64,000 nt of DNA from Trypanosoma brucei (lineage: Eukaryota): the NCBI GenBank assembly GCA_000002445.1, contig AE017150.2, positions 160,001 to 224,000 on the forward strand, read 5' to 3'. Below the pieces are notes generated by a model. That model had not been told where the DNA came from. It ran no database searches and saw only the letters and a list, made by a program, of their open reading frames with translations. Made by a program: the position numbers and the translations under genes. Position 1 is the stretch's first letter. Each line of letters starts with the position of its first letter. Below, piece after piece: positions 1-37,601 of this stretch.

Positions 1-2
1 TC

Positions 3-3000
3 GATTCAGTTGGGACTGGTGGACCACTTGTAAAGGTCAGTCTTGATAACTGCGCAGGGTTTGGTGATATGACACTCTTATCCAGCATTGTTACACTCGA
101 GGAGCTGAATATTCAAAAATGTGCTGACATCATTAGTGGTGTGGGTAGCCTTGGTACACTACCGTACCTGCGTGTGCTTAACATAAAGGAGGCACACATC
201 TCGTCCCTTGACTTTACTGGTATTGGTGCCTCAAAATCCCTTTTACAGCTCAATATGGAGAGTATCACGGGACTGATTGATGTGGAAGCACTCGCCAACA
301 TTTTGACTCTGGAAAAACTAAGCCTTCACGGCTGCACGGGTATTGACGCAGGAATTGGATGTCTCGGAAACCTGCCACAGCTTAAAATGTTGGACCTGTC
401 TGGCACAAATACCGACAATGAGTCTCTCAGAAGTTTATGCCTATCGCAGACAGTGGTGTCCCTCAACCTTTCCCATTGTTGGAAAATGACAAATGTGTCC
501 CATATTTCAAGCCTCGAAGCATTGAATGAACTGAATCTGAGCAACTGTTTTGGAATAAATGCAGGATGGGAAGCAATTGAAAAACTTCAGCAGCTACATG
601 TGGCAATCCTCTCGAATACACATATTACTGATAGAAACATATCCCATTTCAGCAAGTGCAAAAACCTTGTTACGCTTGATCTTTCTTTCTGCAATAAGTT
701 ACTTGATGTTACAGCTCTCTCTAACATCACTACGCTTGAGGAGTTGAATCTTGATAGTTGTTCAAACATCAGAAAAGGGCTGAGCGTTCTTGGAGAGTTG
801 CCACGGCTTTGTGTGTTGAACATAAAGGGTGTACAGTTGGAAGACTCAGTTATTGTTTCACTAGGGAATGGTGGATCACTTGTAAAGGTCAGTCTTGATG
901 ACTGCGCAGGGTTTGGTGATGTCACGCCTCTCTCAAACCTTGTTACACTTGAAGAACTGAATCTCCACTACTGTGACAAAGTAACCTCTGGAATGGGAAC
1001 ACTGGGCAGGCTACCGCAGCTTCGTGTACTGGATTTGGGACGGACACAAGTTGATAATAATTCCCTTGAGAATATCTGCACAAGCTCAATCCCACTTGTG
1101 TCATTAAACCTTTCGCATTGCAAGAAAATAACATCTATTTCTTCAATCGCTTCCCTTACAGCATTGGAGGAACTCAACATTGACAACTCCTGTAATGTAA
1201 CATCCGGTTGGAATGTATTTGGTACACTTCATCAACTGCGTGTGGCCACACTGTCGAATACACGCATTAATGATGAAAACATACGGTACGTTAGCGAGTG
1301 CAAGTCTTTGAATACACTCAACCTTGCGTTTTGCAAAGATATAACAGACGTCACAGCACTTTCTAAAATTACTATGCTTGAGGAGCTGAACCTTGATTGC
1401 TGCCCCAACATCAGAAAAGGTATTGAAACTCTTGGAACGCTTCCCAAGGCAGGTATCCTAAGCATGAAGGAATGTTACATGGGAGACAGTGATGCGCAAC
1501 AATGTTCCATCCTTTGGAATAGTAAGTCACTTGTGAAACTGAATCTTGAGAGGTCAATGGGATTCATATCTGTGAAAGCTCTCTCTAACATTGCGACACT
1601 GGAGGAGTTAGTACTCGGTCATGCACGGAAAGTATGTTGTATACCGTCATTTTCCTGTCTACCGCGCCTTCGAGTACTGAATCTGAAATATACGGATTTC
1701 AATGATGATGTAACTAAAAATATTTCCGAATCGAAATCGCTGCAGTCACTCAACTTATCACATTGCAAATGGGTAACCGATATATCAGTATTATCTTCCT
1801 TATTGGCACTGGAGGAACTGAATGTTAACTGCTGCAACGGAATACGAAAAGGCTGGGAGTCGCTCGGAAAGCTGCCTCTACTACGTGTAGCAATTCTATC
1901 TGATACTAACATCACCGCTAAAGATATAGCTTGCCTTAGCAGTTGCAAAACGCTGGTGAAACTAAAGTTTTTTCGGTGTGAGAAGTTGTCAGATGTCACG
2001 GTGGTGTATGAGATTCAATCACTGGAGGAACTGATAGTTAGGAGCTGTTCAGACGGCCTCAAGGGACTGAATGCCCTTGGTACACTGCCACGGTTGCGTT
2101 TTTTGCTTCTGCGAAATGTGAGAGGTAGTGATATATCTGTTGAATCTATTGGGACGAGCAAATCTCTCGTGAGGCTTCATATTGAAATGCGCGAGGACTT
2201 AACAGACACAACACCCCTCTCCAACATCACGTCCCTTGAGGAATTATCATTGCGTGAATGCGGTGATAACCTGGGAGGAGTCGGGACACTTGAGAAACTG
2301 CCACGGCTTAAATCGCTGGATCTCGGTTTATCTGACATTAGCAATAGCACACTTAATTATATTTTTCTGTCTCGATCCATTACGTCACTCAACCTAGACT
2401 CCAGTTGGGAACTAACAGATATATCTCATATATCAAATCTTACGGCACTGGAGGAATTGAATCTGGGAGGATGTTACTACATAACTTCAGGCTGGAAAGC
2501 ACTTAGCGAATTACCACGACTTCGTGTGCTCAACTTGGAATCCACCAGAGTTACGACCCGTTACGATGGATACTATATCAGCAGATGCAAATCCCTCGTC
2601 ACACTCAACCTTGAATTGTGTGATATGACCGATGCTTCATACATCGCTAATATCAAGACACTGGAAGAGTTGCATATAGGGAAATGCAAAGAGCTAACGC
2701 AGGGGTTTAGTGCACTTTTCACTCTTCCGCGGTTGCGCATTCTTAACTTGATTTGTTCTCTTATTACAGATGAAGACCTCAGGGAAATTCAACCACCCCA
2801 TACCATTGAGGAGCTCAATCTTTCTTATTGTGTGGAGCTCAATGATATTACACCACTTGGGAGAATAAAATCAATTAAAAAATTGCATCTCCGTCAGAGC
2901 CATGATGCCAGAAGGTCCACAGAAGGATTCAGAAGTCTTTTGGAGCTGCCGTGCCTTTCTTGGGTGGATCTCAAAAATGCTTCTGTCAGTTCTGATATCC

Positions 3001-3038
3001 TGCGTGAACTGGGAAAAAGGAGGGTACATATATATTAA
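3..3038 (+). CDS. Leucine-rich repeat protein (LRRP, ESAG8-like LRR family), 5'-partial. The reading frame is open from the first base of the window, and the ORF-track start at 69 is an internal Met.
   Basis: The ORF is 989 aa long. It consists almost entirely of roughly 24-25-aa cysteine-containing LRR units (LxxLxLSxCxxITDVSxLSxLxxLEELNLxxCxxIxxGxxxLGxLPxLRVL) typical of the T. brucei LRRP/ESAG8 type. Positions 3-68 are in frame with no stop codon and repeat the LRR unit seen at 840-930. The stop codon TAA is at 3036-3038. Confidence 0.8.
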   Translation, partial: DSVGTGGPLVKVSLDNCAGFGDMTLLSSIVTLEELNIQKCADIISGVGSLGTLPYLRVLNIKEAHISSLDFTGIGASKSLLQLNMESITGLIDVEALANILTLEKLSLHGCTGIDAGIGCLGNLPQLKMLDLSGTNTDNESLRSLCLSQTVVSLNLSHCWKMTNVSHISSLEALNELNLSNCFGINAGWEAIEKLQQLHVAILSNTHITDRNISHFSKCKNLVTLDLSFCNKLLDVTALSNITTLEELNLDSCSNIRKGLSVLGELPRLCVLNIKGVQLEDSVIVSLGNGGSLVKVSLDDCAGFGDVTPLSNLVTLEELNLHYCDKVTSGMGTLGRLPQLRVLDLGRTQVDNNSLENICTSSIPLVSLNLSHCKKITSISSIASLTALEELNIDNSCNVTSGWNVFGTLHQLRVATLSNTRINDENIRYVSECKSLNTLNLAFCKDITDVTALSKITMLEELNLDCCPNIRKGIETLGTLPKAGILSMKECYMGDSDAQQCSILWNSKSLVKLNLERSMGFISVKALSNIATLEELVLGHARKVCCIPSFSCLPRLRVLNLKYTDFNDDVTKNISESKSLQSLNLSHCKWVTDISVLSSLLALEELNVNCCNGIRKGWESLGKLPLLRVAILSDTNITAKDIACLSSCKTLVKLKFFRCEKLSDVTVVYEIQSLEELIVRSCSDGLKGLNALGTLPRLRFLLLRNVRGSDISVESIGTSKSLVRLHIEMREDLTDTTPLSNITSLEELSLRECGDNLGGVGTLEKLPRLKSLDLGLSDISNSTLNYIFLSRSITSLNLDSSWELTDISHISNLTALEELNLGGCYYITSGWKALSELPRLRVLNLESTRVTTRYDGYYISRCKSLVTLNLELCDMTDASYIANIKTLEELHIGKCKELTQGFSALFTLPRLRILNLICSLITDEDLREIQPPHTIEELNLSYCVELNDITPLGRIKSIKKLHLRQSHDARRSTEGFRSLLELPCLSWVDLKNASVSSDILRELGKRRVHIY

Positions 3039-5140
3039 TATTTGATCCATTGTTTCGCTTTGTATAATTTAATAACTTATTGCTGAGAACACGTTACTAA
3101 ATTTAACAGCCAGTTCGAGTGGTTCGCTAACTGTAGGCACCATTATTCGGACAGATACCAGTAACAATTCACATGGATGATATTGTATGTTACACTATCT
3201 TAAATACAAGAAATACAAGGATCTCATTACAGTTATTTAAGCGTTTAACAAATTAGTAAGTCATACCAATCATATATTGTGAAGAATAAAGAACAGTTAG
3301 GAAAGTGTGTGTATGTATGCACAAGGCTTTTTTCTCAATGTAAATTTGTATTTTAGTTGTAAGCGTAGTAAATATTGTATTATGCTCATTCACATTACAA
3401 CTATACCAAATGAACATATCTTATTTTGTATGCCCTTCTAACTTTATGACTACACATTCACACACATATATATTGAATTATTATTATTATTTCTATCGTT
3501 CTTATTGTTATTACATGAAACACAACATTCACATTTAATTTTTACTCATAGCCACACCTGAAAAGTAAAAGCACTCAACATTCTGCAGTACTGTATACCT
3601 GTCAATGATATGAGGAGGTGAAGTTTATATACCATTATAGTGAATATATTTCATTATTCTTATTATTATTTGCTTTACTGAAAGAAATGACAGAGTGACT
3701 TTACAATAAATTATATCAGAGCAGCATCTTAACTACCAATTTGCTACACGGGAAACGATAATACAACACATTACGTGTCTCGTGATTCTTTTTTACACTT
3801 GCCACTGGTATATATCTATATTCTCAAACAATGCGATTGAATATTCTCTTTTCATTAAAATATTATATTATAACTTATTGTATTTGTTTGGTTTTGTAAT
3901 AACATAATTTATTTTATTACATTTCCTTTCAGAATTATTTGTGCCAAACTTTTGTGAAGATGTCATACAATCTGAATTCCCTTGCGCAGCAAAGGGTTGT
4001 GTACCGCCTTAATTCATTAACATTTGTGCTACATGTGCATGGTAAAGTGTATTAAACATTTCACTGGTTTTGGGAAATATTATTTTCTTTCTTACAACAT
4101 GATGCCTCAGAAGAACTGAAGGCGAGAGCAAATCCTTTCATTCATTTTATTTTCCTTTTCTTACCGTATCCGTATATGTTTATGACTTTCCAGAAAACAC
4201 TGCTGAGGTAAATTATGTATTCCTTCATATTTACTTTTTATTTGACAACAACAACAAAGGGATTTCCTCCTCACACACTTAAATTAATTAGACACTGCTG
4301 TTAGCTGATAAGTTATAGACAGCCGCACATTTAAGTTACACAAATCCACACCGATTCGAAATAGCAAAATATCAAATATTATGTATTTATTTGAGAAAAA
4401 AAAAAAAGAGACGAAAAGCAGCGCTGCATCTGAAGGGAGATGCATGTGAAATCGAAGGACAACTGTCATTTGAATATCATATCCCCAAATTGTTTCGCTT
4501 ACATTATTAGCAGTAAATGCTTACGGAACTTGGGAAGTGAATGACTACTGAAATTAGAAGCATGAGGACGCACCGCGATGGCACATGAAAGTAACATGGG
4601 TGGGATTTTTATGTATTGGAAAGTGGAGTGGCTTTAAGGTGTTTTACATGATGTTTAGTTGGAGATTGAAATACTTCAGGAAATAGTGAAAGACTGTTAT
4701 GATACAGGAATATTTTCGTTTACTAATTTCAAGCGCACTTCCGTGACGCACTATTTTCGGTTTACATTGCAAGAAGTGGTATGATATATGCAACTGCTTA
4801 TTTCTTATTTATTTTTTGCGAGTTTATATAAGTGTGGTTTGGTGACGTGGAAAATTTTAGCATATGGTTAATGTCTTTATGACAAGCAAATGCTCTGTTC
4901 GAGCTATGGTATTGGAAGGTTAAATATAAATTATATGTTTTATGAGTTATCAAATGCTGAATGCTGCGACTGACTCACTCTTCAAACAAAAACACTTTCT
5001 CAGCTTTTCCACTCTCAGCTAAAAATGTAGTTCAGTTTCCAAACAGCACACCACATCTCATTCACCATCGGGTAAAGAGATATTGTTGTATGGACAACAC
5101 GAAAGTGGAGAAGTACAGAAAGTAGAAATAAAATAAAGAG

Positions 5141-5160
5141 TATATATATATATATATATA
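5141..5160. repeat. (TA)10 microsatellite
   Basis: A perfect tatatatatatatatatata run. Confidence 0.95.
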
Positions 5161-7774
5161 TCGAATTATGTTGGAACTGCAGGTATCATTCAACCTAAGA
5201 GCAAAAGCACCTTTCCTTCTGTTGTGAGCCGCAACCATGCCGTGACGAAGTTACAAGTGGAAGGAGTTGGGTCAAATCATTCATTACCTAATATCTGTAA
5301 TGTGAATATTTTTGTTTAGAGATATTCGTATGTTAATGAGAGACCATTATGCAGAGGGAAGAACAACCGACGACTGCAACCTAAAACCCGTAATTTGCGG
5401 ACTGTGATAAACTTTAATAGTTTCATTTTATTATGTAAAGATGGCATCAGCAGATTATACTTGTAAGCTGTTTGAAGTCAAAACAACGATACACGGAAGG
5501 GAATGTGCAGGTGGTGATTTAAATCGTATGTTTATGAGAAATTTGTAGTGTGAATCAACTGTTGAAATATGTTGTGCGACATTAACAGCAGATGTTGTTT
5601 TTTTTCATATTATTCTCCTTTTCTTTTCTTTTTTGCTTGTTTGTCGAACAATCTGAGGTTTAGTTGATATATTCCTGAGTTTCATCACATGTGTTTCTGT
5701 TTATATAATACTAATCGTTACAAACTAAATATCTGCAGTAAGTATATTAAAAACATACAATTTGTTGCTACCTCTTGCTTCATTTCTCTTTATTCAAACG
5801 GCACTTTCTTTTAATCTTGTAAATAATGTTTTTATCGTTGTTTCATTTGTTTGCACACTTAATCCTCTGCGCACGCTGCTGTATTTATTTGCTTCTACAT
5901 GCTCGCAAAAAAAAATATATATATAAATCATTTTGAAACAAATCGCGGTTGCGACTGATGTTTGTTTTGTTTGCGTCGTATTATAAGGGGAATGTAAGTT
6001 TCGTTGATTAAACATTTCATGGCATATCATTATCGAGTTGTTGCTATGAACTCATAAATAATCATGAGACAGGTTTTTACGAGTCATACTCCATGCATAA
6101 GTGCAATGCACTGAAGGAATGTAATTTTATTTATTTATTTATTATTACTACCATTATTATTGTCAGAATTAATATTCAGGTTTTCATCCATCACTATTTT
6201 ATTATTTATATTTTCTTTCCAACATCTGTTTCAAGAAACATGGTCGATTGGAAATAATGTAGACATCAATGGTTAGAGAAACTTTGATTTGCCTTGACCG
6301 TGCAGATGCGCAAAGTTCAAAAGGTTTCAGAAAGGTGTTGGGGAAGTTTAACCATATTTTTTTATTACTGAATTCTTTCTCTCAAATGTTTTTGTTCTTT
6401 TGTATTGCACTTAAATTCAAAACCAATTGGGCAGCGCTTTGAAGGCAGTGAAGTGGCGTATGGAAATATTTGCGTATTGGCGTTTTTTTAACGTGTGATG
6501 ATTACGTTCCTAACGGTGATGGAAAAAAAGTAACATATGAATGTGTGTTCAATAATAATAATAATTAAATGCCAAGTTCTCTTACTTTCTGTATCAAATA
6601 CTGAGCCTGTTTTATAATCTCATTTTTTCAAATGCGTATCAAGGTTTAGGAGGCACAATGTTGCTTAAAACTCAACTCTCACGAAAATGACACAAATTAA
6701 GGGAAGCTTCTATCGCAGCCACCATTTCCATGTGTGCAACAGTAAGCGAGTCATTGTAACAATATATTTTTTTGCGCGTGTGAAGTGTGAAATCCTCATG
6801 AGAACTCAAAATTTACTACAATAATACTCATTATGCAAGGTGCTTTGAGTGGGGAAGGCGGCGCAGACTCAAATATCCAAAACAATTTATTTTCCCATAT
6901 GGCGGAACGAACGGAAGCTGTAGTTAAACATACACTGCAAAGCGAGAAAAGTATATCTCCGGGTGCTGACACTCTCTAACGATGTGAACACAAACCCTTC
7001 ACTTGCGAACAGGAGGCTTCAGTTTGTTTATTTGTTTGTTTGTTTTTGAATCCATTCCTCACATCAGCATCCAACATTAAATACAGGGAATTAAGAACCT
7101 TTATCACGACCATTATTGTTGTGTCTTGTAAGATGATACATATTTTATGATAGGAACTTACTGGGCACCAGCAGTCAACAAAGAAATATGAAAGAACACA
7201 ACAGTGATAAACATATATTACCTTGAAGCTACATGTGTACGTTTTCACGGAATTAGCTCAGTGGTATTTTCGAACTCAGAGAATGGGGAAAAGCGACAGT
7301 CAGATGAAATGAATAAAATACCAAATGTCGTGCATCAACTAATATATTTGAAAATAGAATCTCATGCCGTGCATTCCTTGGAGGCATGAAAATAGATTCA
7401 ATAACGCTAAGGTGTGACAGTGTTGAGGCATCTGTTTATCAACATGCGTTGAAAGTGGGGGAAATGTCAGTGAATACCTGAGGTAGCGCCAAACTATTTT
7501 TTTTTAATGGCCACAAAATGCTGCAGTAGAGCAGTGTGGAAATAATTTCATTGGATAGAAAAATGTGTGAGGAAAGTTTATTAAATTTGTTTGAGATTTA
7601 TAACTGTTCTACCTGAGTAACTGTGTGCGTGGTTTAGTACAGGAATACCTTTGCGATAAAGCTTCTATTTCCTTTAAAAGGAAACGGTAAGAAGTTACAC
7701 TAGTTAAAAAAGTAAAACAAATATTTTAATCAAGAACAATATTCAATGTTTTGCTTCAGGACAAAAAAACACTT

Positions 7775-8340
7775 ATTCTGGGAGAAAAGCGTCTGGGGGG
7801 ACGTGAAGCAAGAGTTGATAATGTTTTCAGTTTATATGGCTCCGTATGCAATGCAAAGTGAAGTCACATTATAATGGACAACGAAACTCAACTGCTGTGG
7901 AGGATGGTTGTTGATGGAACGCGTAGTGGCAATGTAATGTGGAAGGATGAAGAACTTAATGTTGTCCCTGAAATTGAGGAAGCTGTTGAGAAGAAACCAG
8001 AACGCAGGGAAGAAGTTGAAGCAATGGTTCTAACATCTCAAATGGGGTGATAATAAGCCAAGTTTGCCGGGGTGAGTAACAAAAACATATTCATCCATAG
8101 AGAAGAGCTCCGCGTATGGAATGTTGTAAGGAATGGAATTGAATTATGGCGTACACAGCGTGCTTTACCGGAATGTCTTTATTTTCCACGATCATACGCT
8201 GTCATTGTTAACCATGGGATTGGAAAATCTCAGAATTTGGGCTCTTTTATCCTCTACAAGTTATTGCATTGTGATGCGGAAGAGTTGCCTATTGTTGCGT
8301 ATTTCTGCGGCATGGCAGTGTTAATATTTGAAACCAACTG
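7775..8340 (+). pseudogene. RHS (retrotransposon hot spot protein) fragment on the plus strand. It is truncated, with internal stop codons and a frameshift.
   Basis: The translation (GEKRLGGREARVDNVFSLYGSVCNAK*SHIIMDNETQLLWRMVVDG..MWKDEELNVVPEIEEAVEKKPER..IHREELRVWNVVRNGIELWRTQR..NHGIGKSQNLGSFILYKLLHCDAEELPIVAYF) aligns to residues about 40-230 of the intact minus-strand RHS at 19639-21663. It contains in-frame stops and a frame change near 8050-8075. Confidence 0.7.
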
Positions 8341-10500
8341 ACGGACCCTTCGGCATAATCAAGGGAGATAGAAGGTACGCAGCTTTAATGCTGGACGGAA
8401 GCATGCCAAGCATTAGTCATTTTTTCTGCTACACGTTTAATGAAACTGTGCATTTATCTGAGTTGTCTATGAATTGGGAAGCGCTTCGACCAGGTCGTTT
8501 AATGAGCAAACTCCCATGGCAGAGTGTTGAACACACCTCATTGCGATGTCTGAATCCGGTGCATCTTCGAGAGGGAGGAGATTAAATGTTCGCGCGCATC
8601 CCGTCTTAAGGATTTCAGCAGTCGGACAGTAACGGACTGCCCGGGGGAGAAGGAAAAGCGGCGAAACAGTCGGTTTTCGGGATGGTGGGAAGCATCGGTG
8701 TGATCCTCCACGTGTGCAAACATGATTCTTTCGGTATCTTTAGAGCGCTCTCAATGTTGAGATCGGTGGTGTTAAGCAGAATACAGGTCTGATCTCAGGT
8801 GAGTCGCGGCGGAATTCCGGGGAACTCTCCCGGCCGAAAAGGATAACCTAAGCAAATAACTGCGCGAGAAAAGAGTAACTGCCACATTTTTCACGAAACG
8901 TTATCATCAGAGTCGGAGGCGGATTCCAGTGATGACCGGATGTCGGAAGATTGATATAGCATGACCCCTTAAGGGTCCATAAGCGTGGAGATTGGCAAAG
9001 GATGGGATTGATGCGTTGAAAGGTTCGCAGAAAAAACAAACAAGCAAGTACGAAATACGATCGGTTGTTCCAATTGTCACACTGGAGCTGCTAATTGCAT
9101 CTGTATCGGCGTTTTTACACAAACGAAAACAATAACAAAGGAGGAATCGGGCATACGGTGGCCGACGTAACGTTTCAAAACAGCCGGGCACGGAATCCAA
9201 CTACAACATCTGTCAACGGAAGATGATGTGCTGTGCAATGGCCCTCGCAGTACATGATGGAAATAACCGGTGCGAGGAATGACGCGAGAACGTCCCATGT
9301 GTAATTGGTTTTCACCTCAAGTCATGGTCGTCTACAGGTTATGTGGAATAGATGAAAATAATAGGGAATTGTGAAAAAAAAGAGTTTTAAAAGAGTTTTT
9401 CGCCGTCATCGTCATCATTCTTCGGAAAGTCAGTATATGGGTTGTTATTATGGCGGTGCGAACTAGACCAGTCCGACGACGGCCACTGCATTTTCTCCCG
9501 GCGACTACTGATATTTTCTCCGCTTTGTCCTTTTCCAAACACTTTTAACTCCTTAAGGTTTCACCATCTTTTCACTTCTTCAGCTGTGCTCGCGCCTTCC
9601 TTCTGTTCCCGATGTCAACGACTCCTGTCCTTTTTACCTTTGCAGAATTCGCACGCTCTCAAGAATTTCCTTACATTTTGCACCTCTTCCCAGTTCCCTC
9701 ACCCGAATCGTGGTCATTCCTATGTCTCCGCCACGGTAGCGTGACGGTTTTTATCATACGCCCCGTCACCGAATCTAGCGCCGGTGTTTCCCGCGCCTGT
9801 GAACTTTCGCCCATGGTGTCCACGGCAAGTCGTTTCTCAACGATCCTTATTTCGCTGCATTTACAAGTTGCCGTTGGCTCTCTTTCCCGCTTGGCGTCAT
9901 GACAACAATGGCTGCGTTCGGCTTTGGCATATGGCTTGTGTACAGCATCTCTTGTTTCGCTTATTTATTTCGTGTGTCGAGGGAATGCTGCCGTTGGCAT
10001 TGACGTTCCTGAACTCAGCAAACTCCTGCCATCACTCACTTTCGTGAGTTCCATCAGCCGTCACAGTTGTGCTCTCGAGCTTGGTATCGTGCTTTCGGTT
10101 GCTTAGCGTCTAGTTAAATGCCACGGCCATGGGCGTCTCCTGAGCAGCAACGCCTTTCTTCATACCTGCAGCATTAGACTTACATTGTTGTGTCGTATGT
10201 GACGGAGGAAGACGCAGCTATGGTTTCAGGGTGGTGAACTCCGTTAGTTTGTTTTTATCATCGGTGACAAATTCGATTACGCAGTTGTTTTACTCTTCTG
10301 TAACTTTCCCTTCCCCAGTTTCAACTGTACATGTTTTCCTCAAAGTCATTCCCATCTGGCAAGTTGGTTTGTTTTTTCCTCCCTTTACAACTTCCAACAA
10401 ACAGAACGGCGTCCGCGACACAACTACTTCCCTTTTCCCCCTTACCTTCCCCACCGAAAAATATCGTTGAAAGTTCAATACTTTCAATGCAACTTTAGCG
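8341..10500. other. Unclassified block with higher GC and no ORFs. It may be a degenerate retroelement or a structured or intergenic sequence.
   Basis: GC content is noticeably higher than in the flanking AT-rich spacer. No ORF longer than about 100 aa is present. No homology to RHS, LRRP or ingi termini can be recognised by eye. The plus strand is CT-rich from 9440 to 10480. Confidence 0.3.
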
Positions 10501-10675
10501 TAAGAAGTTTTTTGGCGGCGATGCCTGAGAATAGTCAAGTCTCACTTCCCTATAATATAGTAATAGAAAAAATATATAACATAATTATAAAAAGTGCTTT
10601 CGTGCAAACGAGTTTTACTGAAATATAACTCATATCGTAAACGAAATTTATTGATACGTACATAACCGCCTCTAT

Positions 10676-10720
10676 TACTTACGAAGCGGAAGTGTCTGAA
10701 AACGTCTTTAACCCGCCTCC
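10676..10720. other. Conserved 45-nt motif, copy 1 (the second copy is at 55966-56010)
   Basis: The sequence acgaagcggaagtgtctgaaaRcgtctttaacccgYctcc is shared nearly identically by two otherwise unrelated regions. Confidence 0.5.
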
Positions 10721-11166
10721 CGCGCTCCCCTTTGCTTGCTCTTTGGACACCCGCGGGTTTATCTTTCTGAGGTCACGTAACTCCATGAAGAATTAATCTT
10801 CCCATCTCGCAGCACACTCCATCTACGGCTAAAGCCTCATGAATCATGTCACTGAAATGTGTGTTGCAATTCCCACTATTTTTTTAAAAATAATATGCAT
10901 CATACTTGTGTTGACTACGCATACATGTACGAGACTCTTCAATCTCTTTCATAAGGCAAATATTCAAAAGCGGGCTCTCGTTTCACAAGTAGCACTTGCA
11001 GTTAAGAACTTCCTTCCCGAATTGAGGAATTATAAAACCACTCCCATCACCCTTGCATGGAAGCATCCGTTACCATCATGGCCACAGTTGCTACAACTCG
11101 CTACTTGCTCACTGGTTTTTTCTTTACTAAAATGCACATCCATTTTTGTGTAAGCTGTAACGCATA

Positions 11167-11192
11167 TGTGTGTGTGTGTGTGTCTGTGTGTG
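11167..11192. repeat. (TG)n microsatellite with one interruption
   Basis: The sequence is tgtgtgtgtgtgtgtctgtgtgtg. Confidence 0.9.
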
Positions 11193-14100
11193 GTAACACG
11201 GTTAAATTATTGGGTCGCATCCGGACCGTATTGCATCATGACAAATATGATGTTACCATTTAAAAAATAAGTAGCAATAGTAGTAGGGAGAAAGCTATTG
11301 TTTTTTCTCACTCCTGCTGCCGCGTACATCATGCGTGATACAACAGTTTTCATTTATTCTATAGTAGATTTTTTCACATAGCAAGGGATACTCGGAATTG
11401 TTGTATAACTTTCGTTGTCCCAGCAATACTGTCTGCTTTTCATGGTTAAACTAAAACTCCAATGAAATCACATTGTTGTGTCATCTTTTGTGAGTCACCA
11501 ATGATGGTTGTGCCCCACATTTCTTCATGCTGGTAACTATTTTGTTTCCACGACATTTAACCACGTCATGTGCCTCACACTAATAAATATGTTGCAGATC
11601 CATGTTTGAGTCCTCAATCTTTCAGGGGTCGCCTGCTGCAGCCTCACGACATCGGCGTCTTCTGAAAAGACCCTTGTGATGGTGTGTGAAACTCCAGGAT
11701 TCTCCTTTATTAACTGATGGGGAGTCGATTCAAATTCACTAATTCCTCATTTTTGCTAACGTATCGGAACCCCACCCGAATATTCTCAGGCAACTTCACT
11801 TGGGAGGGAAATGACTTTAGATCAAACACTGCCACCGACTGGTCATGGAGAGTAATTATCAACTGGGAAAAGTGACACAATGGGACATATGCCTCATAAT
11901 CATCCCTGCTCTTTTTAGCCTTTGGTCATGCAATAAATCAACACCTTCTTCCAATTCTGTTTTTCCTCCATCACAAAGAATGGCGCACAACTCATCCTGT
12001 CATATGTCTCTCTGAAACTGGGCCAATGATACGCGATTGCTTCATTATTTGGGACTTCTTTTTTTACAATGTGCAATTCAGATTCCTTTTTTGATACTTT
12101 CTCTTTCCACATCATCTGTGCTATTCTTAATGCTCCAACCCTCATCAAATCGCTTACTCGCTGCTTGCATCATCCTCTGTCAAATCCACGGAAGGAAAAT
12201 CATTCCCACATTTATTTCCTATTGGAGAGGTGAAGTATTTTCTTTTCCTCCTCTTCCCGTGAGGTCACCTTTGTTTTCCCCTTGTGAGTGTCAAGGAATG
12301 CTGTGCAATCGATAATTTGGGAAGATATTCCCCGTTATAAGTCCCGGCTTCCCTCACACTGGGGCCGCACATTCCTTCCAATTATATCTTACATCAAAAA
12401 CATTAAAAGAACCGACTTGCTTACGGAAGCTGTCACACATCTGAGATACCACACTGTGCCTCGTGGAAGTTCCATTGTGTAGATGTGCTTTCCAAATTCT
12501 ATTAATAATATGTTGTCAATGTCGTGTTCAATTGCAACTACTGCCGCTGCGCGTGTCAGCAGTGCTCTTCTCTTTATGGAATGTTCTATCATTACGTATG
12601 GTCTTTTCAGTATGGTGTCATTTTCCCCTTTGTGGTAATGGCTATGAACTTCTTCCCCTTTCCTCCCGAGGTTCCTCCCTATGACTTTTTTCACACTGGC
12701 AATGCTCTTTTCCCAGTTGATAATTACGCATCGTGTGAGTATGTGGGTATCGCTTTTGAATTTCTTTAGAAGGTTCCCTCCCAAAAAAAAATCCACTGTT
12801 GAGGCTTTCTTTTCGTGTCAGTGTGGCACAACATTTTTCTCTTTTTTTGGGAGCTGTGTAATTTCTTTTTGCCATCGCATGGCTGGATGCAATTCATTCC
12901 ATTGATATTGCAACTGGATACCACTCTGGACGGAACTTCCTGCAAGATATTATCGAATCCCCATTACAACATGTGTTGTGTTTGTTTGATGGGTTTACCT
13001 GTTACCGTACTGTAAAGACGGACCCAAAAACAACATCCGCGTCGGTTTGTCCAATAGAGATGATGGAAGAGTTCTCCTGTACTGAAATGGCAATGGTCTC
13101 TGCGAGTCGTAAACTTACAACAACAAATAAAAGTGCAGTTGCATCCTATGCTGGAATGCGGTAATGATTTTCCGCCAATGCATAAAAACACCGCATGATG
13201 AATTCCCTGTTGCTCACATGTTTTAGTCCTCAGCTACATTCACTTTGCTATTCTATTGGCTCCTGAAACCAATGTCATGATGTACGGACAGCTTTTTGTG
13301 GGAACTGCAATAAAAATAATAATCATAATTATAATAACTCCTTTCACCAATGAGTTTACTATTGGTTGTAAAAGTGCTCTTGGTGCCACTCCATTTTTCT
13401 TTTCTTGAGTCCCCAGCTGCTGAGGGGCTGTTGTATTTTTTTTTAAAGAGTGACGCACCGTTTTATTCCCCACCCCTTTCAGGTGACTTCCTCCTGCACA
13501 GTTTTTACTTTCCCATCGTAGAATGTTTTTCAAGGTGTTTCCTTTGTGAAGCTTTGGTTATGCTATAATTAAAGACCACTCAACTCCCTCCTTCCGGGAA
13601 CTGTTGTTGCATTTATTTCCCTTTAGTTGCTGCAAATTTGTTTATTTGACAAGTTGTAGTGCGATACTTCACTTGACCATATGTGTAACATCGTGTCTCG
13701 TTGCTTTATAAAAATTCAAAAAGAACACATCAGGTGATATTCTTCTGCTCTTACTTCGTCCATTCACATCTCTTCCCGCCAGTTCGGAAACTCCCACTCA
13801 AACTCACCACTCTGTGAAGATTTGTAGTTTCCGTTAGCGATGGACGTACTGAAGTGGACATGTTTGGCACTTCAAAACTAAGTTTTTTAAACTTACACCT
13901 TCCTTCTTGCATACAGCTTCAGTGCGAGAGTAAAGGAATAGTTGAGTATCATGAGAAAACATAAGCCCAAAACATTCTCAACTCAAGCTTTCAATAAAAG
14001 CAAACACATTAAGATGGTTTAGTGAACACATGCAGTATAATCCCTAGCAAAGGTATTATTCACACCCAATAAACAACTCAAACAAATAACACCAGCATAC

Positions 14101-14884
14101 ATATCGCAGACACATAAGTTGCACCTTCACAAACAAATGAAAGCTGCTGTGGCTCATCATGTGTAAAATATTATGAGCACAAAAACATAAATGTCCTTGA
14201 CCTTCCATAAATGTATAACACAATATTTCTTGCATTGTCATCGGGAAAATATTTTTTTTATATTGTTATATATATTCATCCAATAGTCAAGAGTGAGCTC
14301 TGGCCTTGTAGAACTGTAAATGCGTGCATGTTCTGTTATTATTGTTTCCCATTGCAAAATGAAGATACCTGCAGATGTGGAGAAACGTCTCCATAAATGC
14401 TTATGATGCACCAAATAATTCTCTCGTAAAGAAAGGAGAGAACAAATGCTCAGCATACGTGTCGCTATTTGTATCTTTAAATTAAGGTTCTCTTGAATGG
14501 AGTAAAGAAAAAACAAAGAAAAGGCAAGAAGTATATGATGTAATTGGTGAGGCATAATGAAATGACCCAACAAGAGGGAAAGGAAGTTACATGCCTTCAC
14601 TACAGTCATACAAATAAAGCCAGACCCTTCACACTCGTTTTACAATGTTCTGTCGTATCGCTCTGCATAAACAAATAATACTAATAGAAAAGGGAAATGT
14701 AAGAAGAAAGTAAAAAAGTATCAAATAGTTCGAGGATTATCGACACTCAGCTACGTGAAGTGATACGTATCGCAAATGTGTGTTTGAAATGCTCACCATC
14801 CTAATGAACTTACTCGTATGTTACTTAACCCTGGGAAATATTTCTCTGTGCGCTCAAGTTACCTGACAACTCTCCTTCCGCACC

Positions 14885-17800
14885 CTATGCATTGTTACCA
14901 CCTCTATTGTTAACTCCGTTGTTATTGTTACCTTTTACTTGCAATTCAACGTATAGTGCAGTAATGTGGTTACTAAGAGAGACCGCGAACTGACGCACTT
15001 CCTGTTCACAAAACCTTTCCTCAACCTTATTATTTTGTCCTCCGTCTTCGATTGTCCCCTCACAACATTGTGGCTTTGTAATTTTTTCGCTGTCAACCCT
15101 TTGAACATAGATTATTTCCCATACCATCCCGCGTGAAAAATTGTCCCAGCGTCTAAAGTAACTTTGCAAACACCTTTTCATCTTAAATAACCCACCGGTG
15201 CTGCAAGGATGACTACCGGAAATTGTGTACTGCAGTCCCACAAAAGTCTTCGGATTCTCAACAAAAAAGAACGCATCAACAACCGGGAAACTCCTTGATT
15301 GCGGCTTGTACAATTTCATATATTGAATTTCAGCTCCAGCTACAATTGGAACATCCTCAGGAACCACAATCAAAGGATTCGTGAGTCTTGGACCTTGCAG
15401 CACCTGCAGCACACTTTGTTGGATTTGATCCCCAGCAAATGAAAGGCCCTGTAACTCCCTTGCCAACTCAGTTAGTGTATTCTCATGTGACAATGCTTCA
15501 ATGCCACTCTTCTCAAACAGATGACCAACAATAGCGCAGTTAGACAGCAGAGCAGATATTGCAGCATATTTATTCAGTAACCAAGGCCTCAGAAAGTCTA
15601 AAATAACTTGCCCCGTGTAAGATGAAAGCGGTGTGCAGAGATACGAATCACACAGAAGATTCCCTTTCTTCACTCGAACAACCCTCACTAACCTGTGTGA
15701 TGCTTTGCGTGTTTGCCAGGTAGCTGCGTTTTGGAAAATTTTTGCGTAGCTTTCCTTCTTTACATCACTCATTTCGTTAATGGCTTCCTCGATTAGATCA
15801 CACTGCCTGGTGAACGACGCCGAATCAACAATGTGACGAAGCAGTGGGCCAACGATAGGAATGCGATCTTGAATTTCTTGCCATTCACTTTCAATTTTCT
15901 CCTTCGCATCTGAAGGATTCCAACCGTAAGCAGGAGCAATTTTCCCCCACCTCGATATGTGTATGACTTCCAAATCCTTCAATGTATCACAGTTAATGTA
16001 AAAATGTAGGGCTTTGTTTTGCTTGGACCATCCATGGAATTGTCTAACGTTTGGAGAGCTCAAGGCAATACCAGCGAAATCACCAGGTGGTTTCGTCGGA
16101 GCAGGATGATTCTTGTCCACGTCAAATATAACGTATCCCTTAATATTCTCTGCGCCACATGAATCTCTGACTATTTGGCCAATAAGCGTTGAGGCATCAT
16201 CATAATTACTGTAAAACGTAACATATCCTGCTCGATCGCCTTTGGGTTTACGAAACACATACGCCTTACCACTCACAACGTACATGATAATCTAAAGCTG
16301 ACTCGATTCATAATGCAGTAGTTTGTATAACAGTATTATTTTTTTTGGAATTTTCTTCGTGCCTTCGTGAGAGTTTCTCCCAACTGGCGGGGCCATCAGC
16401 CATCACCGTAGAGCCCTGAGATGCTATCGGTCTGGCGACTGTGGCAGAGTCTCCCTTTTTCATTCATCCTAACACACCCTCTATAATTTTTGTTGTATTT
16501 CCGCATATGAACGGAATACAGCAGATGGGGCGAGAAGCCCCCCTCACCCCGGACTCTCCAAAAGATGTCAATTAGCAATCCTTTTGTTTTGATTTTTGTT
16601 ATTCGTTTATTATTCTCTCCCCCTCTTTCTGTTTCTGTTGCTTGTTGATTGCATACCCCCTCTGTCTCTAAGGGTGTCTGGACTATTCCTGCGTCCTGTG
16701 CTTTTCCTGCTAGCTCCACACTCGGCAATAAGGGGGGAAGTTGCAGAAGGGAGAGTGGGTTGTATGACTGTTACCTTAGGTGAGGACTTCACCTGCGGCC
16801 GGCTCCGTTCAACCGCAATGAGAAATTGCGCCAGCATTTAAGAGAAACATACATGCTGCACACACTCACCTTCTACCGCAAACCTGACACGTAACTCCTT
16901 CAAACCTGGACAGCTCATCAAGTGCAGCGACGTTTCTTCGCAGTCGCCGCGTTGGCTGGTAACAGCGCGCTCTACCTTCATACCGTTCATCTTCTTTTGA
17001 TGGAGGGTGAGGCCAGTTTTGCTAGCACACTGCCTTCCGCATGTCGGGCACACCAACATGGATGTGTTTTTATGCGGGGAATCAGTGGCACACAATTTTG
17101 TGCTTTTGCTGCATTTAAGCTCGACTCCCTCACCTTTGTGGAAAGCCTTACAGTGTCGGATGAGGGAGTCCCTGCAACTGAGCACTTTTTGGCACACACC
17201 ACACTGCACCCCGCCCTTCCCCGGGACGTCAACGTTTTCCTCACGGGCACGCTTACGAGGGAATTGCACCAACACCACGGTACCGTCCTCCGTCACTATG
17301 CTTTTATGTTTGAATTTCTTGTGTAGTGACAGGGAAGAACGTGTACCGAAGCTCGCCTCGCACAGGTCACATTGAAACGGCAGCTTCCGTGTATCCTGAG
17401 AGGCTGGCGCTGCTGGGGCTTTACCATCTCCTTGCACTGAGTCCTCGTTCTCTCGCCCCCTTTTCACGCGGCAACTGCCGCTGCCTATGCCATGTATTGT
17501 TCTAAGGTGGTGTAGTAGTCTGCCTGGCACTGCGAATTTGGAGGCACAGATGGTACAATGAAGCACCTGCGGTCTCATCGGGACTCGTGTGCTCGATGGT
17601 AGGGGAACGATCGCCACCACTGGAGGGGGCTCCGGGGGGATATCCACTGCAGGTGTTGCATCGCCGTATTTGATCCTCCGGAGGGCATCAGCTCGCACAA
17701 AGCCATGTTTGTTTACCATATGCGTTACAGCACTCGAGCGGCATTGGTATGTGGCATCACATTCCGTACATTTGGTCGGTTCGGAGGTTCTCTGAACAGT

Positions 17801-18560
17801 GCGTGTCGCAACAGTTGGGACTGTTTGTATTGTTGGTCCTATCGCTGCATGTTGCGGGTTACACCATCGGCACTGTGGAGGCACACTCGGGTTGATCTTC
17901 CGCACCCTCTTGAATTGCATACTGCGGAATACTGAAAGAGTTATATGGCCAACCCTTCTGCGAGGTGAGCACAGCAATCTCTAAATTACCGTGACGAGGC
18001 AGTGGGTCGCACAAGTCAAAAGGCGTGTGACTGACATTCACCTCCTCTTCTGTCCACAACTCGGGTTTGCCGTCACAATTACCCACTACCTTCATGCCAA
18101 GAGGTAAATCATTGTGACCCGACTCCACATAACCCCATGTCGCATTGTATATGGAATCATATACTCCTTTCAGTTCTGCACCACCAGCTGTTTGGTCAGC
18201 TCGTTCCCTTGCCTCTTTGGCAGTATCCAATGCCGCATCCAGCATTGCTCTCGCCCTGGGACCAACAAATTCCCTTATTTGCGCTTTTGCCATCTCCTCC
18301 CATTGCTGCATGTCTTAAATTCTATTACGAGGCAGATCAATAACTGCCCTTGGTAATTGAAACTCATCAAGCCGCTGTATCCTGTATTTCTTCAAGAACA
18401 TTAGCATTAATATATTTTCCCGGATTCTGAACAAACAAAAACATGGCCACATTCTCTGTTTTATACGTGTTTGAGAAGTATTGATTCAAAATTTCATGCA
18501 GTTTCATTTCATCCAAGCTCGCATAATCTTCCAGCAGCACATCCTCAATAGAACTGTTAA
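14885..18560 (-). pseudogene. RHS pseudogene interrupted by an ingi 3' fragment. It is a composite of a C-terminal part (14885-16336), the ingi fragment (16339-about 17895) and an N-terminal part (about 17895-18560).
   Basis: The C-part is a 466-aa in-frame RHS C-terminal region (MYVVSGKAYVF...NRGGNNA). Upstream of it, the codons LILLYKLLHYESSQL abut the ingi tail. The N-part (ORF 17859-18311 plus frameshifted upstream sequence to about 18560) matches the RHS N-terminal region (KAQIREFVGP...GVYDSIYNATWGYVESGHNDLPLGMKVV...LEIAVLTSQKGWPYNSF). It is lost roughly 180 bp short of the GIGKS motif. Confidence 0.75.
16339..17895 (-). mobile_element. ingi non-LTR retroposon, 3' fragment of about 1.6 kb. 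It comprises the C-terminal C2H2 zinc-finger part of the ingi ORF, the 3' UTR and an A8 tail. The 5' part is absent.
   Basis: The 3' terminal sequence (ggaattttcttcgtgccttcgtgagagtttc...gatgctatcggtctggcgactgtggcagagtctccc) is the same as the 3' halves of the two RIME copies, and is followed by a T8 run on the plus strand (16339-16346). The minus-strand ORF 16838-17977 contains at least five C2H2 fingers (CTICASKF..HHLRTIH, CDLCEASF..HKKFKH, CGVCQKVL..HCKAFH, CPTCGRQC..HQKKMNG, CTECDATY..HMVNKH). The 5' boundary is approximate, within about 50 bp. Confidence 0.7.
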
Positions 18561-19638
18561 TTGATCAAGTTGGCCCTTTTTCGCCTCCACGCAGTCAATT
18601 CAAAAAATATATTGCCGCATGCAACCTATTACTATGGAAACGCCTTATTGAATTCCACACTTCTGAAAACTTGCCCCCTGATTCTTCACAAGCTTGCGAT
18701 AAAAGCATAAACAAAAATAGAATCAGAAACAGAGACAGAGACAGTTTACACTGTAGAAAAGGACACCACAGTGAGTCACTCATTCTAGGAAGATAATCAC
18801 AAAAGCAAACACCCTCAAAAAGACAGCTCAGCGCCATAAAGCAGAACCTACTTACTACTAATAAGGAGTTGTGCCCCTTCCCTGCCAGTAAAGACACAAC
18901 ATTCCCCAACAAACACAGTGGAAGATCACAAGACTTATGACCCCTCCATACTAACCTAAACAAGACAGCGTGAATCACAATTGCATGCAATGCGCTAAGA
19001 ACCCAAAACGGTTCCGCACATTTGCCTCTGAGGATCCCTACTCAATCGCACCCCTACGCGGGAATCAATATTCTGCCTGTCACAAAATAACACAGCGGAC
19101 AGCAGAAGGAAAGGGGGAAAATAAAGAAACCCATCACAACACATAAGGATTTTAATGGGAACTTAAAGGAAACCTTCTAGATGAGAATGCTAACACCCAT
19201 ACCACAACAGTGCTCACAATCCTCTTGTATATCAGTGTTTAATTAGTTTTTCACAAAATGATTTGATAATCGTAACGATTCAAGGAATAAAAAAATGTAA
19301 ATGATAAGACACGACGCAACAAGCTGCCACATTGCCATTAATGGATGTATGTAATACCATTGTTACTATCCATTTCATTGTGACAACACATGCAAAATAC
19401 AATCGATACCACGGATTTCGTACGCCTTCCGTCGTGCGGTGAATCGCAGAGTGGATGTAAACAGTTGCGAAAGGATTACACCAACGCAACTGCAAGTTCG
19501 TTATGCTGCCAGGAACCTGTCCAGGATATATGATGAGTGAACTCCATTACCCAGACAAAAAATGTGACGCCTCCTCTTGCCCTTTCATTCGTTCTTCACA
19601 GTGTTTACCTCGTTGTTGGCTTGCCTGAGGTTCGTCAA

Positions 19639-37049: not shown

Positions 37050-37061
37050 AATGAAGCAAAA
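37050..37061. repeat. RIME target-site duplication, left copy (AATGAAGCAAAA)
   Basis: It is an identical 12-mer to 37590-37601, and the two copies immediately flank the element. Confidence 0.9.
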
Positions 37062-37298: not shown

Positions 37299-37336
<38 letters not shown>

Positions 37337-37589: not shown

Positions 37590-37601
37590 AATGAAGCAAA
37601 A
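37590..37601. repeat. RIME target-site duplication, right copy (AATGAAGCAAAA)
   Basis: It is identical to 37050-37061. Confidence 0.9.

What the first reader, a model, noticed from the sequence alone, without database searches (positions are those of the whole stretch)
8341..14884. A zone of about 6.5 kb where plus-strand genes converge on the minus-strand RHS array, containing a GC-richer block with no ORFs
LRRP and an RHS fragment are on the plus strand to the left. Everything to the right is on the minus strand. Transcription of the two sets would therefore converge between about 8.3 and 14.9 kb. The segment 8341-10500 within it is distinctly GC-richer and has no ORFs and no recognisable family. 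Convergent strand-switch regions in trypanosomatids are termination sites and often carry RNA genes, degenerate retroelements and specialised chromatin.
Basis: inference. Interest (0 to 1): 0.5.

Follow-up and report, generated by a model that had tools for sequence, protein, structure and literature searches.

The report
Decayed retroelements at convergent gene junction

Summary
The window is T. brucei TREU927 chromosome 2. LRRP (69-3038) and a 480-bp RHS fragment (7850-8331) lie on the plus strand. Every RHS gene from 14885 onward lies on the minus strand. The block 8341-10500 has GC 0.474 against a window mean of 0.391 (95th percentile). Its open frames and stop counts match shuffled sequence.

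New here: base composition switches strand at 9341-9400, inside the block. The stretch 10677-13024 (minus strand) is a degenerate VIPER tyrosine-recombinase retrotransposon. It is collinear with a T. grayi copy and matches published VIPER YR and RT/RH sequences (E 1e-11 and 3e-10).

The block matches no Pfam, Rfam, tRNA, RHS, ingi or VIPER sequence and has no repeats. A T. b. equiperdum copy of the locus is 94.4% identical in the block and 94.9% in the flanking spacer, so there is no extra constraint.

Best reading: two oppositely oriented, fully decayed fragments of unknown origin at a convergent junction that collects dead mobile elements. Termination and chromatin could not be tested. The protein-database negatives for the block are unreliable, because the control matches were missed. 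Interest is low.

The parts
69..3038 (+). LRRP gene, C-terminal 989 codons (gene starts left of the window); last plus-strand gene before the junction
   Evidence: Pfam LRR families; 100% identity to XP_951492.1 of T. brucei TREU927 on a 1,193,948-bp contig
3039..4848 (+). LRRP 3' flank shared with a paralogous LRRP locus
   Evidence: Window 1-3996 is 90.5% and 3981-4848 is 70.7% identical to a T. b. gambiense LRRP pseudogene locus, L003
7850..8338 (+). RHS N-terminal fragment (pseudogene relic), cut off 45 positions into the 312-position P-loop domain
   Evidence: blastn 79% to 21017-21497 and 46921-47402; tblastx; Pfam RHS_N 25-118 and RHSP 5-45/312; internal stops
8339..9340 (+). Left arm of the GC-richer block: GC 0.481, purine-rich on the plus strand (GC skew +0.14, AT skew +0.09); no detectable homology or coding signal
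   Evidence: composition; open frames random; 3-base periodicity 0.73, like non-coding; no hits; 94.4% identity to the T. b. equiperdum copy
9341..9400 (.). 60-nt AT-rich junction containing no C; composition switches strand here
   Evidence: GC 0.233, GC skew 1.0; sign change of GC skew and of the k-mer strand score between 9001-9500 and 9251-9750; sequence read
9401..10540 (-). Right arm of the GC-richer block: GC 0.479, purine-rich on the minus strand (GC skew -0.17, AT skew -0.27 on plus); no detectable homology or coding signal
   Evidence: 94.5% identity to the T. b. equiperdum copy with 102- and 27-nt deletions in the window at about 9581/9600
10541..10676 (.). AT-rich spacer (GC 0.27) just beyond the VIPER 3' end
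   Evidence: the T. grayi copy shows the same GC drop right after the conserved 3' block
10677..10735 (-). Conserved non-coding 3' block of the VIPER relic
   Evidence: 86% nt identity over 59 nt to T. grayi L002 2362-2419; a 46-nt copy at window 55965-56010, 93%
10750..11964 (-). VIPER reverse transcriptase / RNase H remnant with stops and frameshifts
   Evidence: tblastn with T. theileri VIPER RT/RH: 11952-11713 E 2.8e-10, 11377-11243 E 0.02, 10815-10762 E 0.68 (weak, counted only as collinear); T. grayi frames: 11952-11455 E 2.8e-15; RT motifs FDLKSF and RLPIS retained
12392..13024 (-). VIPER tyrosine recombinase remnant, including the 142-codon open frame 12392-12817
   Evidence: HMMER hits to Tb10.v4.0215 (81%), T. 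grayi KEG06943 (49%) and a T. b. gambiense hypothetical (44%); T. theileri VIPER YR aligns to 12883-12443, E 1.1e-11; H-x-x-K-R ... G-K ... R-x-T-x-x-Y invariant across four sequences
13025..13850 (-). Probable 5' continuation of the VIPER relic (inferred, no homology found)
   Evidence: Same composition as the confirmed part (GC 0.40, GC skew -0.12, AT skew -0.15); published VIPER copies have 2.1-2.4 kb from ORF1 start to ORF2 end (PMC6681497 suppl. 3); no CH-box
13851..14884 (-). AT-rich flank downstream of the RHS pseudogene (T-rich on the minus strand), containing the 123-aa ORF 14238-14609
   Evidence: GC 0.36, AT skew +0.13; the ORF sequence is in UniParc as UPI00001B51A6 with no Pfam family; open stretch of 133 codons, p 0.003 against shuffles
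14885..16285 (-). 3' part of an RHS pseudogene; first minus-strand gene of the array
   Evidence: Pfam RHSP 34-311, E 9e-108; preceded on its strand by an ingi 3' fragment (16338-17896) and the hot-spot 12-mer TACTGTTATACA

Best explanation
The 6.5 kb zone is the gene-free interior of a convergent junction in the RHS-rich left arm of T. brucei chromosome 2. It is filled with dead sequence. From left to right: a truncated RHS fragment on the plus strand; a 2.2 kb GC-richer block made of two unrelated, fully decayed pieces in tail-to-tail orientation that meet at a 60-nt AT-rich joint (9341-9400); a degenerate VIPER tyrosine-recombinase retrotransposon on the minus strand (10.68-13.0 kb, probably to about 13.85 kb); and the AT-rich flank of an ingi-disrupted RHS pseudogene.

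Shown: the strand layout, the composition switch, the VIPER identity, the lack of coding or RNA signal in the block, and its drift at the rate of its flanks.

Inferred: each arm of the block is a relic of once-coding or mobile DNA, because each is purine-rich and G-rich on its own outward-to-inward strand, as RHS, ingi and VIPER sequences are here. Also inferred: the block has no sequence-specific function. By position, RNA polymerase II coming from LRRP and from the RHS array would meet here. In T. brucei that end point is set by chromatin (H3.V, H4.V, base J), not by a known DNA motif. This step is inferred from the literature and was not tested.
For: Organism and genes.

Convergence and switch point: cumulative GC skew peaks at 9001-9500. 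The k-mer strand score is positive for most windows across 2751-9500 and negative for most across 9251-27000.

VIPER: the HMMER search of the 142-codon frame found trypanosome paralogues. The window's minus strand 13024 to 10677 is collinear with T. grayi L002 146-2419, in the order YR, then RT, then RH, then a 59-nt DNA block. Published VIPER YR and RT/RH sequences (PMC6681497 supplements 12, 13, 18) align at E 1.1e-11 and 2.8e-10. That paper reports 36 YR and 58 RT/RH hits in TREU927, all degenerate.

Block: no Pfam hit in six frames; no Rfam or tRNA hit; no RHS similarity by phmmer --max; no ingi RT/RH; no similarity to the rest of the window, the VIPER part or other loci; open frames and stops equal to shuffles.

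Drift: identity to the T. b. equiperdum copy is 94.4-94.5% in the arms, 94.9% in the spacer and 94.7% in LRRP, and the window copy carries two deletions in the right arm.
Against: The origin of the block is not identified, so 'decayed relic' is an argument from composition and from the absence of signal.

The two large protein-database searches on the block and its neighbour are not valid negatives. One search missed an exact 123-aa match and an 81%-identical 160-aa protein that are both in that database. No T. brucei DNA or repeat library could be searched.

The comparison for constraint rests on one other copy, probably a paralogue. A small functional site would escape it.

One 160-nt stretch (9720-9879, minus strand) folds better than all 200 shuffles (z -4.16).

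No transcription or chromatin data were available.
Confidence: 0.7

Rival explanations
1. The right arm of the block (9.4-10.5 kb) is the non-coding 3' tail of the same VIPER element (split direct repeats B1-A2-B2), and only the left arm is of other origin.
For: The right arm lies directly 3' of the element and has the same strand composition as the confirmed VIPER part. T. cruzi VIPER carries about 0.6 kb of repeats after ORF3 (PMC6681497 Table 1 and suppl. 3).
Against: Homology to the T. grayi copy stops at 10677, and in both species GC drops right after the conserved block. Published ORF3 ends predict the coding end at about 10.7-10.9 kb, and 0.6 kb of repeats cannot fill 1.1 kb. No direct repeats were found in 9400-10760 or against 13000-14900, apart from a 49-nt AT-rich match.
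Confidence: 0.12
2. The block is a decayed pseudogene of a known T. brucei family. My recollection of the chromosome II paper (El-Sayed 2003, which could not be read here) is that the RHS region holds ESAG3, ESAG4 and RNA-polymerase pseudogenes.
For: GC content and purine-rich sense strands resemble coding DNA. LRRP is ESAG8-like, and ESAG3 follows ESAG8 in expression sites (own knowledge).
Against: No Pfam domain in any frame of either copy of the block; this argues against adenylate cyclase and RNA polymerase. Open frames are random. Three-base periodicity in the left arm is at non-coding level. ESAG3 itself could not be tested.
Confidence: 0.12
3. The block is a functional element of the strand-switch region: a termination or chromatin-boundary sequence, or an unannotated non-coding RNA.
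For: It sits exactly at the composition switch. Each arm would give G-rich RNA from its own side. One window folds with z -4.16. The block is kept in the second copy of the locus.
Against: It is no more conserved than the flanks and carries indels. Four of the six substitutions at paired positions break pairs, and none is compensatory. Mean fold z over 64 windows is 0.08. No Rfam hit and no G-quadruplex motif. No sequence-specific Pol II terminator is known in T. brucei (PMC4721609).
Confidence: 0.06
4. The block is simply the 3' UTR or intergenic region of a neighbouring gene.
For: It lies between genes, and no gene is annotated in it. Only one NCBI protein accession falls between LRRP and the RHS gene at 19639.
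Against: The nearest plus-strand gene ends 5.3 kb upstream, with an RHS relic in between. The nearest minus-strand gene is separated from it by a 2.3-3.2 kb VIPER relic. Confirmed flanks here are AT-rich (0.34-0.36 GC), while the block is 0.47-0.48.
Confidence: 0.05

Closest known systems
VIPER (vestigial interposed retroelement), the tyrosine-recombinase retrotransposon of trypanosomatids (Lorenzi 2006; Ribeiro 2019, PMC6681497)
   Same: The stretch 10677-13024(-) carries a YR remnant followed by an RT/RH remnant, in that order. [quoted passage not shown]
   Different: No gag-like ORF, CH-box or split direct repeats could be shown.
Convergent strand-switch regions (cSSRs) of T. brucei, sites of Pol II termination marked by H3.V, H4.V and base J and producing siRNAs (PMC4721609, PMC3447711)
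   Same: Two coding strands converge, and the composition skew switches in the gap. cSSRs are catalogued in the RHS-rich first 175 kb of chromosome 2.
   Different: The plus-strand unit seen here is one LRRP gene plus relics. The gap is long (11.8 kb from LRRP stop to RHS stop). Chromatin marks, termination and siRNAs were not tested, and the window was not mapped to the published coordinates.
GC-rich strand-switch domains made of degenerate VIPER/SIRE and L1Tc elements, which form T. cruzi centromeres, and the T. brucei centromeric strand-switch regions with DIRE/ingi plus AT-rich repeat arrays (Obado 2007, PMC1868937)
   Same: A strand-switch gap that is GC-richer than its surroundings and holds a degenerate VIPER, with an LRRP gene next to it, as at the T. 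brucei chromosome 1 centromere.
   Different: The window has no AT-rich 29-bp array and no rRNA genes. The chromosome 2 array lies between Tb927.2.1470 and Tb927.2.1560. So this is not the centromere.
RHS pseudogenes disrupted at the retroelement hot spot (Bringaud 2002; own knowledge)
   Same: The neighbouring pseudogene at 14885-18400 shows the classic layout: ingi 3' end, A-rich tail, TACTGTTATACA, RHS 3' part.
   Different: The plus-strand fragment at 7850-8338 runs through the hot-spot position and breaks about 80 nt later. What follows it matches neither the RIME-A half nor the ingi 3' end present elsewhere in the window.

Membership tests
VIPER retrotransposon (for 10677-13024, minus strand) | Tyrosine recombinase with the catalytic H-x-x-R ... 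Y signature, similar to curated VIPER YR | tested here: met
   T. theileri VIPER YR aligns to 12883-12443, E 1.1e-11. HSIKR...GK...R-T--Y is invariant in four sequences. Pfam and PDB profiles did not detect it.
VIPER retrotransposon (for 10677-13024, minus strand) | Reverse transcriptase / RNase H similar to curated VIPER RT/RH | tested here: met
   11952-11713 E 2.8e-10, 11377-11243 E 0.02 and 10815-10762 E 0.68 (weak), all collinear. The T. grayi homologue shows the motifs FDLKASFFQ, LPMGY, WIDN and DAS..GWG, and a weak RVT_1 hit (E 0.012, below the curated cutoff).
VIPER retrotransposon (for 10677-13024, minus strand) | Gene order YR upstream of RT/RH on one strand | tested here: met
   Collinear chain: window 13024 to 10677 against T. 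grayi L002 146 to 2419
VIPER retrotransposon (for 10677-13024, minus strand) | Gag-like ORF1 (with CH-box in some species) upstream of YR | tested here: inconclusive
   No CH-box anywhere in the window. No homology upstream of 13024. Ribeiro 2019 also found zero Gag hits in T. brucei.
VIPER retrotransposon (for 10677-13024, minus strand) | Split direct repeats (A1 ... B1-A2-B2) | tested here: inconclusive
   Only a 49-nt AT-rich direct match, 10568-10615 against 13312-13357, 80%. Such repeats are absent from many published copies.
VIPER retrotransposon (for the GC block 8339-10540) | Similarity to VIPER coding or terminal sequence | tested here: not met
   No tblastx or tblastn hit to the T. 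grayi, T. b. gambiense or published VIPER sequences. Homology ends at 10677.
ingi / DIRE / RIME (for the GC block) | ingi-type RT, RNase H, endonuclease or zinc-finger domains, or RIME terminal sequence | tested here: not met
   No Pfam domain in six frames of two copies. ingi RT and RH give no hit. No DNA similarity to the ingi 3' end or the RIME copies in the window.
RHS (for the GC block) | Continuation of the RHS P-loop domain beyond profile position 45 | tested here: not met
   Pfam RHSP ends at 8338. phmmer --max with seven window RHS proteins against six frames of 8339-14884 found nothing better than E 0.4.
Convergent strand-switch region / Pol II termination site | Coding strands of flanking genes point toward each other | tested here: met
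   LRRP and the RHS fragment are on plus; the RHS array is on minus. The composition switch is at 9341-9400.
Convergent strand-switch region / Pol II termination site | H3.V, H4.V and base J enrichment; loss of nascent transcription; overlapping small RNAs | not testable with these tools
   No sequencing-track data were available. Only published lists of cSSR coordinates could be read.
T. brucei centromere | Kilobase array of AT-rich repeats (29-bp unit on chromosome 2) next to rRNA genes | tested here: not met
   TRF finds only short 9-36-bp arrays of at most 104 bp. No rRNA. The published position is Tb927.2.1470-1560.
Known RNA families (Rfam 15), tRNA | Covariance-model or tRNA match | tested here: not met
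   Zero hits at gathering score in 64 kb. Only one E=4.4 snoRNA-like match, at 12125-12177. No tRNA.

The most novel reading that the evidence does not exclude
The 2.2 kb block, with its two mirror-skewed GC-rich arms meeting at a C-free AT-rich joint, is a so far undescribed sequence element of T. brucei convergent junctions. It might be a landing pad for termination chromatin or the source of a structured non-coding transcript (9720-9879, minus strand), kept in both copies of the duplicated LRRP/RHS unit.
Probability: 0.05. Interest if true: 0.45.

Novelty: already known. Interest (0 to 1): 0.15.

Why it matters
It matters little beyond annotation. The locus is in a published reference chromosome. 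Convergent strand-switch regions in this RHS-rich arm are already catalogued, and degenerate VIPER copies in T. brucei are already counted. The useful output is a corrected map. The composition switch lies at 9.34-9.40 kb. About 2.3-3.2 kb of the 'anonymous' zone is a VIPER relic. The GC-richer block shows no sign of selection. It adds one more case of dead VIPER DNA sitting in a strand-switch gap, as at T. cruzi centromeres and at the T. b. gambiense chromosome 11 locus seen here.

Tried and rejected
(1) Six-frame translations joined with X, sent to the search for homologous proteins: no hits. This method failed its controls. One search contained an exact 123-aa database sequence and a stretch 81% identical to Tb10.v4.0215, and found neither.

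The single job went to the 142-codon frame and led to VIPER.

(3) Exact look-ups of window proteins and P0001/P0014 in the look-up of encoding contigs failed. TREU927 appears not to be indexed there.

(4) My visual impression that 11.5-13 kb was RHS-like was wrong.

(5) The idea that the two arms are an old inverted duplication found no excess similarity.

(6) AlphaFold on the YR fragment gave pLDDT 36 and is unusable. PDB sequence searches with the YR profile and with T. grayi RT gave nothing.

(7) Three-base periodicity separates coding from non-coding only weakly here.

(8) The chromosome II paper (El-Sayed 2003) is not held.

(9) Block k-mers searched in the VIPER paper's supplements found nothing. 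No T. brucei sequences were found in the stored supplement text (file 8 is truncated).

(10) The centromere idea was rejected.

Full report
WHERE THIS IS. ORF 69-3038(+) is 100% identical to the C-terminal 989 residues of LRRP XP_951492.1 of Trypanosoma brucei brucei TREU927, on a 1,193,948-bp contig, that is chromosome 2. The RHS gene at 19639-21663(-) is XP_951494.1. Pfam confirms LRR repeats in the first ORF. It confirms RHS_N/RHSP domains in seven of the eight large minus-strand ORFs scanned; the eighth, 16838-17977, carries C2H2 zinc fingers and belongs to the ingi fragment.

CHECK OF THE OBSERVATION. On the plus strand, left of the zone, lie LRRP and a 480-bp RHS relic. The relic (7850-8331) is 79% identical to two full RHS genes in the window. 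It covers Pfam RHS_N 25-118 and RHSP 5-45 of 312, with internal stops. Everything from 14885 rightward is on the minus strand. The block 8341-10500 has GC 0.474. The spacer to its left has 0.336, the DNA to its right 0.418, and the whole window 0.391. This puts the block in the 95th percentile of equal-sized windows. Its longest ATG ORF is 96 aa. Longest open stretches and stop counts on both strands equal those of dinucleotide shuffles.

THE STRAND SWITCH. GC skew is positive from about 7.3 to 9.3 kb and negative from about 9.3 kb on. The cumulative skew peaks at 9001-9500. A 4-mer strand model was trained on 27-64 kb taken as minus sense. It scores positive for most windows across 2751-9500 and negative for most across 9251-27000. 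The block thus consists of two parts. The left arm (8339-9340) has GC 0.48 and is purine-rich on the plus strand. The right arm (9401-10540) has GC 0.48 and is purine-rich on the minus strand. They are joined by 60 nt of AT-rich DNA that contains no C. The arms are not an inverted duplication.

On the minus strand of 10.5-13.8 kb, stops are slightly depleted and there is a 142-codon open stretch (p 0.02). An exhaustive HMMER search with that stretch (12392-12817) found four trypanosome relatives: Tb10.v4.0215 (81% identity), a 35-aa UniParc fragment (82%), a T. grayi hypothetical protein (49%) and a T. b. gambiense 'hypothetical protein, unlikely' (44%).

I fetched the DNA around two of these. 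The window's minus strand from 13024 to 10677 is collinear with 146-2419 of the T. grayi contig. The chain has four parts:
- a block with the invariant pattern HSIKR...GK...R-T--Y;
- a reverse-transcriptase block (FDLKSF..., RLP...);
- an RNase H C-terminus;
- a 59-nt non-coding block that is 86% identical between the two species.

The supplements of Ribeiro et al. 2019 (PMC6681497) contain curated VIPER alignments with these same motifs. With their T. theileri sequences, tblastn gives YR at 12883-12443 (E 1.1e-11). It gives RT/RH at 11952-11713 (E 2.8e-10), 11377-11243 (E 0.02) and 10815-10762 (E 0.68, weak), all collinear. There are no hits anywhere else in the 64 kb. This is a degenerate VIPER, the tyrosine-recombinase retrotransposon of trypanosomatids. 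That paper counts 36 YR and 58 RT/RH hits in TREU927, all degenerate, and zero Gag hits.

The 3' end of the relic is at about 10.66-10.68 kb. Homology stops there, and in both species GC drops immediately afterwards. This agrees with published ORF3 end positions. The 5' end is uncertain. Composition suggests about 13.85 kb. Published element lengths would allow up to about 14.7 kb.

THE BLOCK ITSELF. The following tests found nothing:
- Pfam on all six frames, in this copy and in the second copy;
- Rfam and tRNA scans;
- the window's seven RHS proteins by unfiltered phmmer;
- ingi RT and RNase H;
- the VIPER relic, the ingi fragment, and the other fetched loci;
- repeats.

Three-base periodicity in the left arm is at non-coding level.

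A T. b. equiperdum chromosome 2 contig is collinear with window 1-10832. It was reached through an LRRP fragment that clusters with the paralogous LRRP XP_951476. Identity is 94.7% in LRRP, 94.9% in the 4849-7849 spacer, 90.8% in the RHS relic, 94.4% and 94.5% in the two arms, and 96-98% at the VIPER end. The window copy has lost 102 and 27 nt in the right arm. So the block is part of a duplicated unit of at least 10.8 kb and changes as fast as its non-coding flanks.

One 160-nt stretch (9720-9879, minus strand) folds better than 200 shuffles (z -4.16). Over 64 windows the mean z is 0.08. Of six substitutions at paired positions between the two copies, four break pairs and none is compensatory.

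HOW IT MOST LIKELY WORKS. The zone is best read as a sink for dead DNA between two converging gene sets. It holds an RHS fragment, two unidentifiable relics, a VIPER relic, and the flank of an ingi-disrupted RHS pseudogene. Purine-rich, G-rich sense strands are shared by the window's RHS and VIPER sequences, and less clearly by the ingi fragment, whose G excess is slight. The AT-rich flanks lack this pattern. That is the basis for calling the arms former coding or mobile DNA. This step is inference.

Polymerases from the two sides would meet here. In T. brucei this end point is marked by H3.V, H4.V and base J, and overlapping transcripts yield siRNAs (PMC4721609, PMC3447711). The published cSSR table lists three such regions within the first 175 kb of chromosome 2, with high small-RNA counts. 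An earlier survey of 49 convergent units listed none in this arm. I could not place the window on those coordinates, and no track data were available.

COMPARISON WITH KNOWN SYSTEMS. The VIPER relic meets the tested family criteria: YR, RT/RH and their order. Gag and split repeats could not be shown. The junction resembles the GC-rich strand-switch domains of degenerate VIPER/SIRE and L1Tc at T. cruzi centromeres, and an LRRP gene also lies at the T. brucei chromosome 1 centromere (PMC1868937). But the window lacks the AT-rich array and rRNA genes. The chromosome 2 array lies between Tb927.2.1470 and Tb927.2.1560. The T. b. gambiense VIPER relic I fetched also lies between plus-strand genes and a minus-strand trans-sialidase gene.

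CAVEATS. The protein-database negatives for the block are void, because that query style missed known matches. No T. brucei DNA or repeat library could be searched. Constraint was judged from one other copy. The chromosome II paper was not available, and what I cite from it is from memory.

VERDICT. The feature is an ordinary, already catalogued kind of region. The added value is a located composition switch and a recognised VIPER relic. The 2.2 kb block remains unnamed but shows no sign of function.

Noticed in passing
window 1-10832 versus L004 (T. b. equiperdum CM010673.1, 802,696-814,910, reversed): The whole stretch LRRP, spacer, RHS relic, GC block and VIPER end exists as a second copy at 93-96% identity. 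LRRP/RHS protein pairs XP_951476/XP_951477 and XP_951492/XP_951494 suggest a segmental duplication of the convergent unit within chromosome 2.
   Followed up: partly
window 10677-10735; 55965-56010; L002 2362-2419: A short non-coding block (core CGGGTTAAAGACGYTTTCAGACACTTCCGCTTCGT) just after the VIPER RNase H end is 86% identical between T. brucei and T. grayi. It recurs as a solo 46-nt copy elsewhere in the window. It may be a cis-acting end sequence of VIPER.
   Followed up: partly
window 9720-9879, minus strand: Four adjacent hairpins give a folding energy below all 200 shuffles (z -4.16). Substitutions in the second copy break pairs and none compensates.
   Followed up: yes
window 37061-37599 and 43037-43520, minus strand: Two RIME elements. 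The B half is 92-93% identical to the ingi 3' end at 16338-16614, and the A half matches an ingi/L1Tc-like 5' end on the T. grayi contig. The first carries a run of 34 A between the halves.
   Followed up: partly
window 16320-17896, minus strand: A 1.56 kb ingi 3' fragment (C2H2 zinc-finger ORF, A-rich tail) is inserted in an RHS pseudogene. The hot-spot 12-mer TACTGTTATACA follows directly after the tail.
   Followed up: partly
window 14238-14609, minus strand: A 123-aa ORF whose exact sequence is in UniParc (UPI00001B51A6). It is probably the single NCBI protein accession between LRRP and the RHS gene. It has no Pfam family, and its open stretch is longer than in shuffles (p 0.003).
   Followed up: partly
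window 10568-10615 and 13312-13357: An AT-rich direct repeat (80% over 49 nt) brackets the YR plus RT/RH part of the VIPER relic. It could be a remnant of terminal repeats or a chance match of low-complexity DNA.
   Followed up: no
L001 (T. b. gambiense chr 11, 3,009,785-3,026,210), 7596-8665: Another VIPER YR relic, truncated after about 1.07 kb. It also sits between plus-strand genes and a minus-strand trans-sialidase gene. It probably corresponds to Tb927_11_v5.1_3036323_3052622 in the list of Ribeiro 2019.
   Followed up: partly
window 22769-22824, 33922-34022, 48637-48741: Short arrays of a 19-bp unit (AGGAAATATATGAAATATA) recur in the spacers between RHS genes.
   Followed up: no
tool behaviour: Long queries made of frames joined by X returned no hits from the search for homologous proteins, even for sequences known to be in its database. 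Such negatives should not be trusted.
   Followed up: yes
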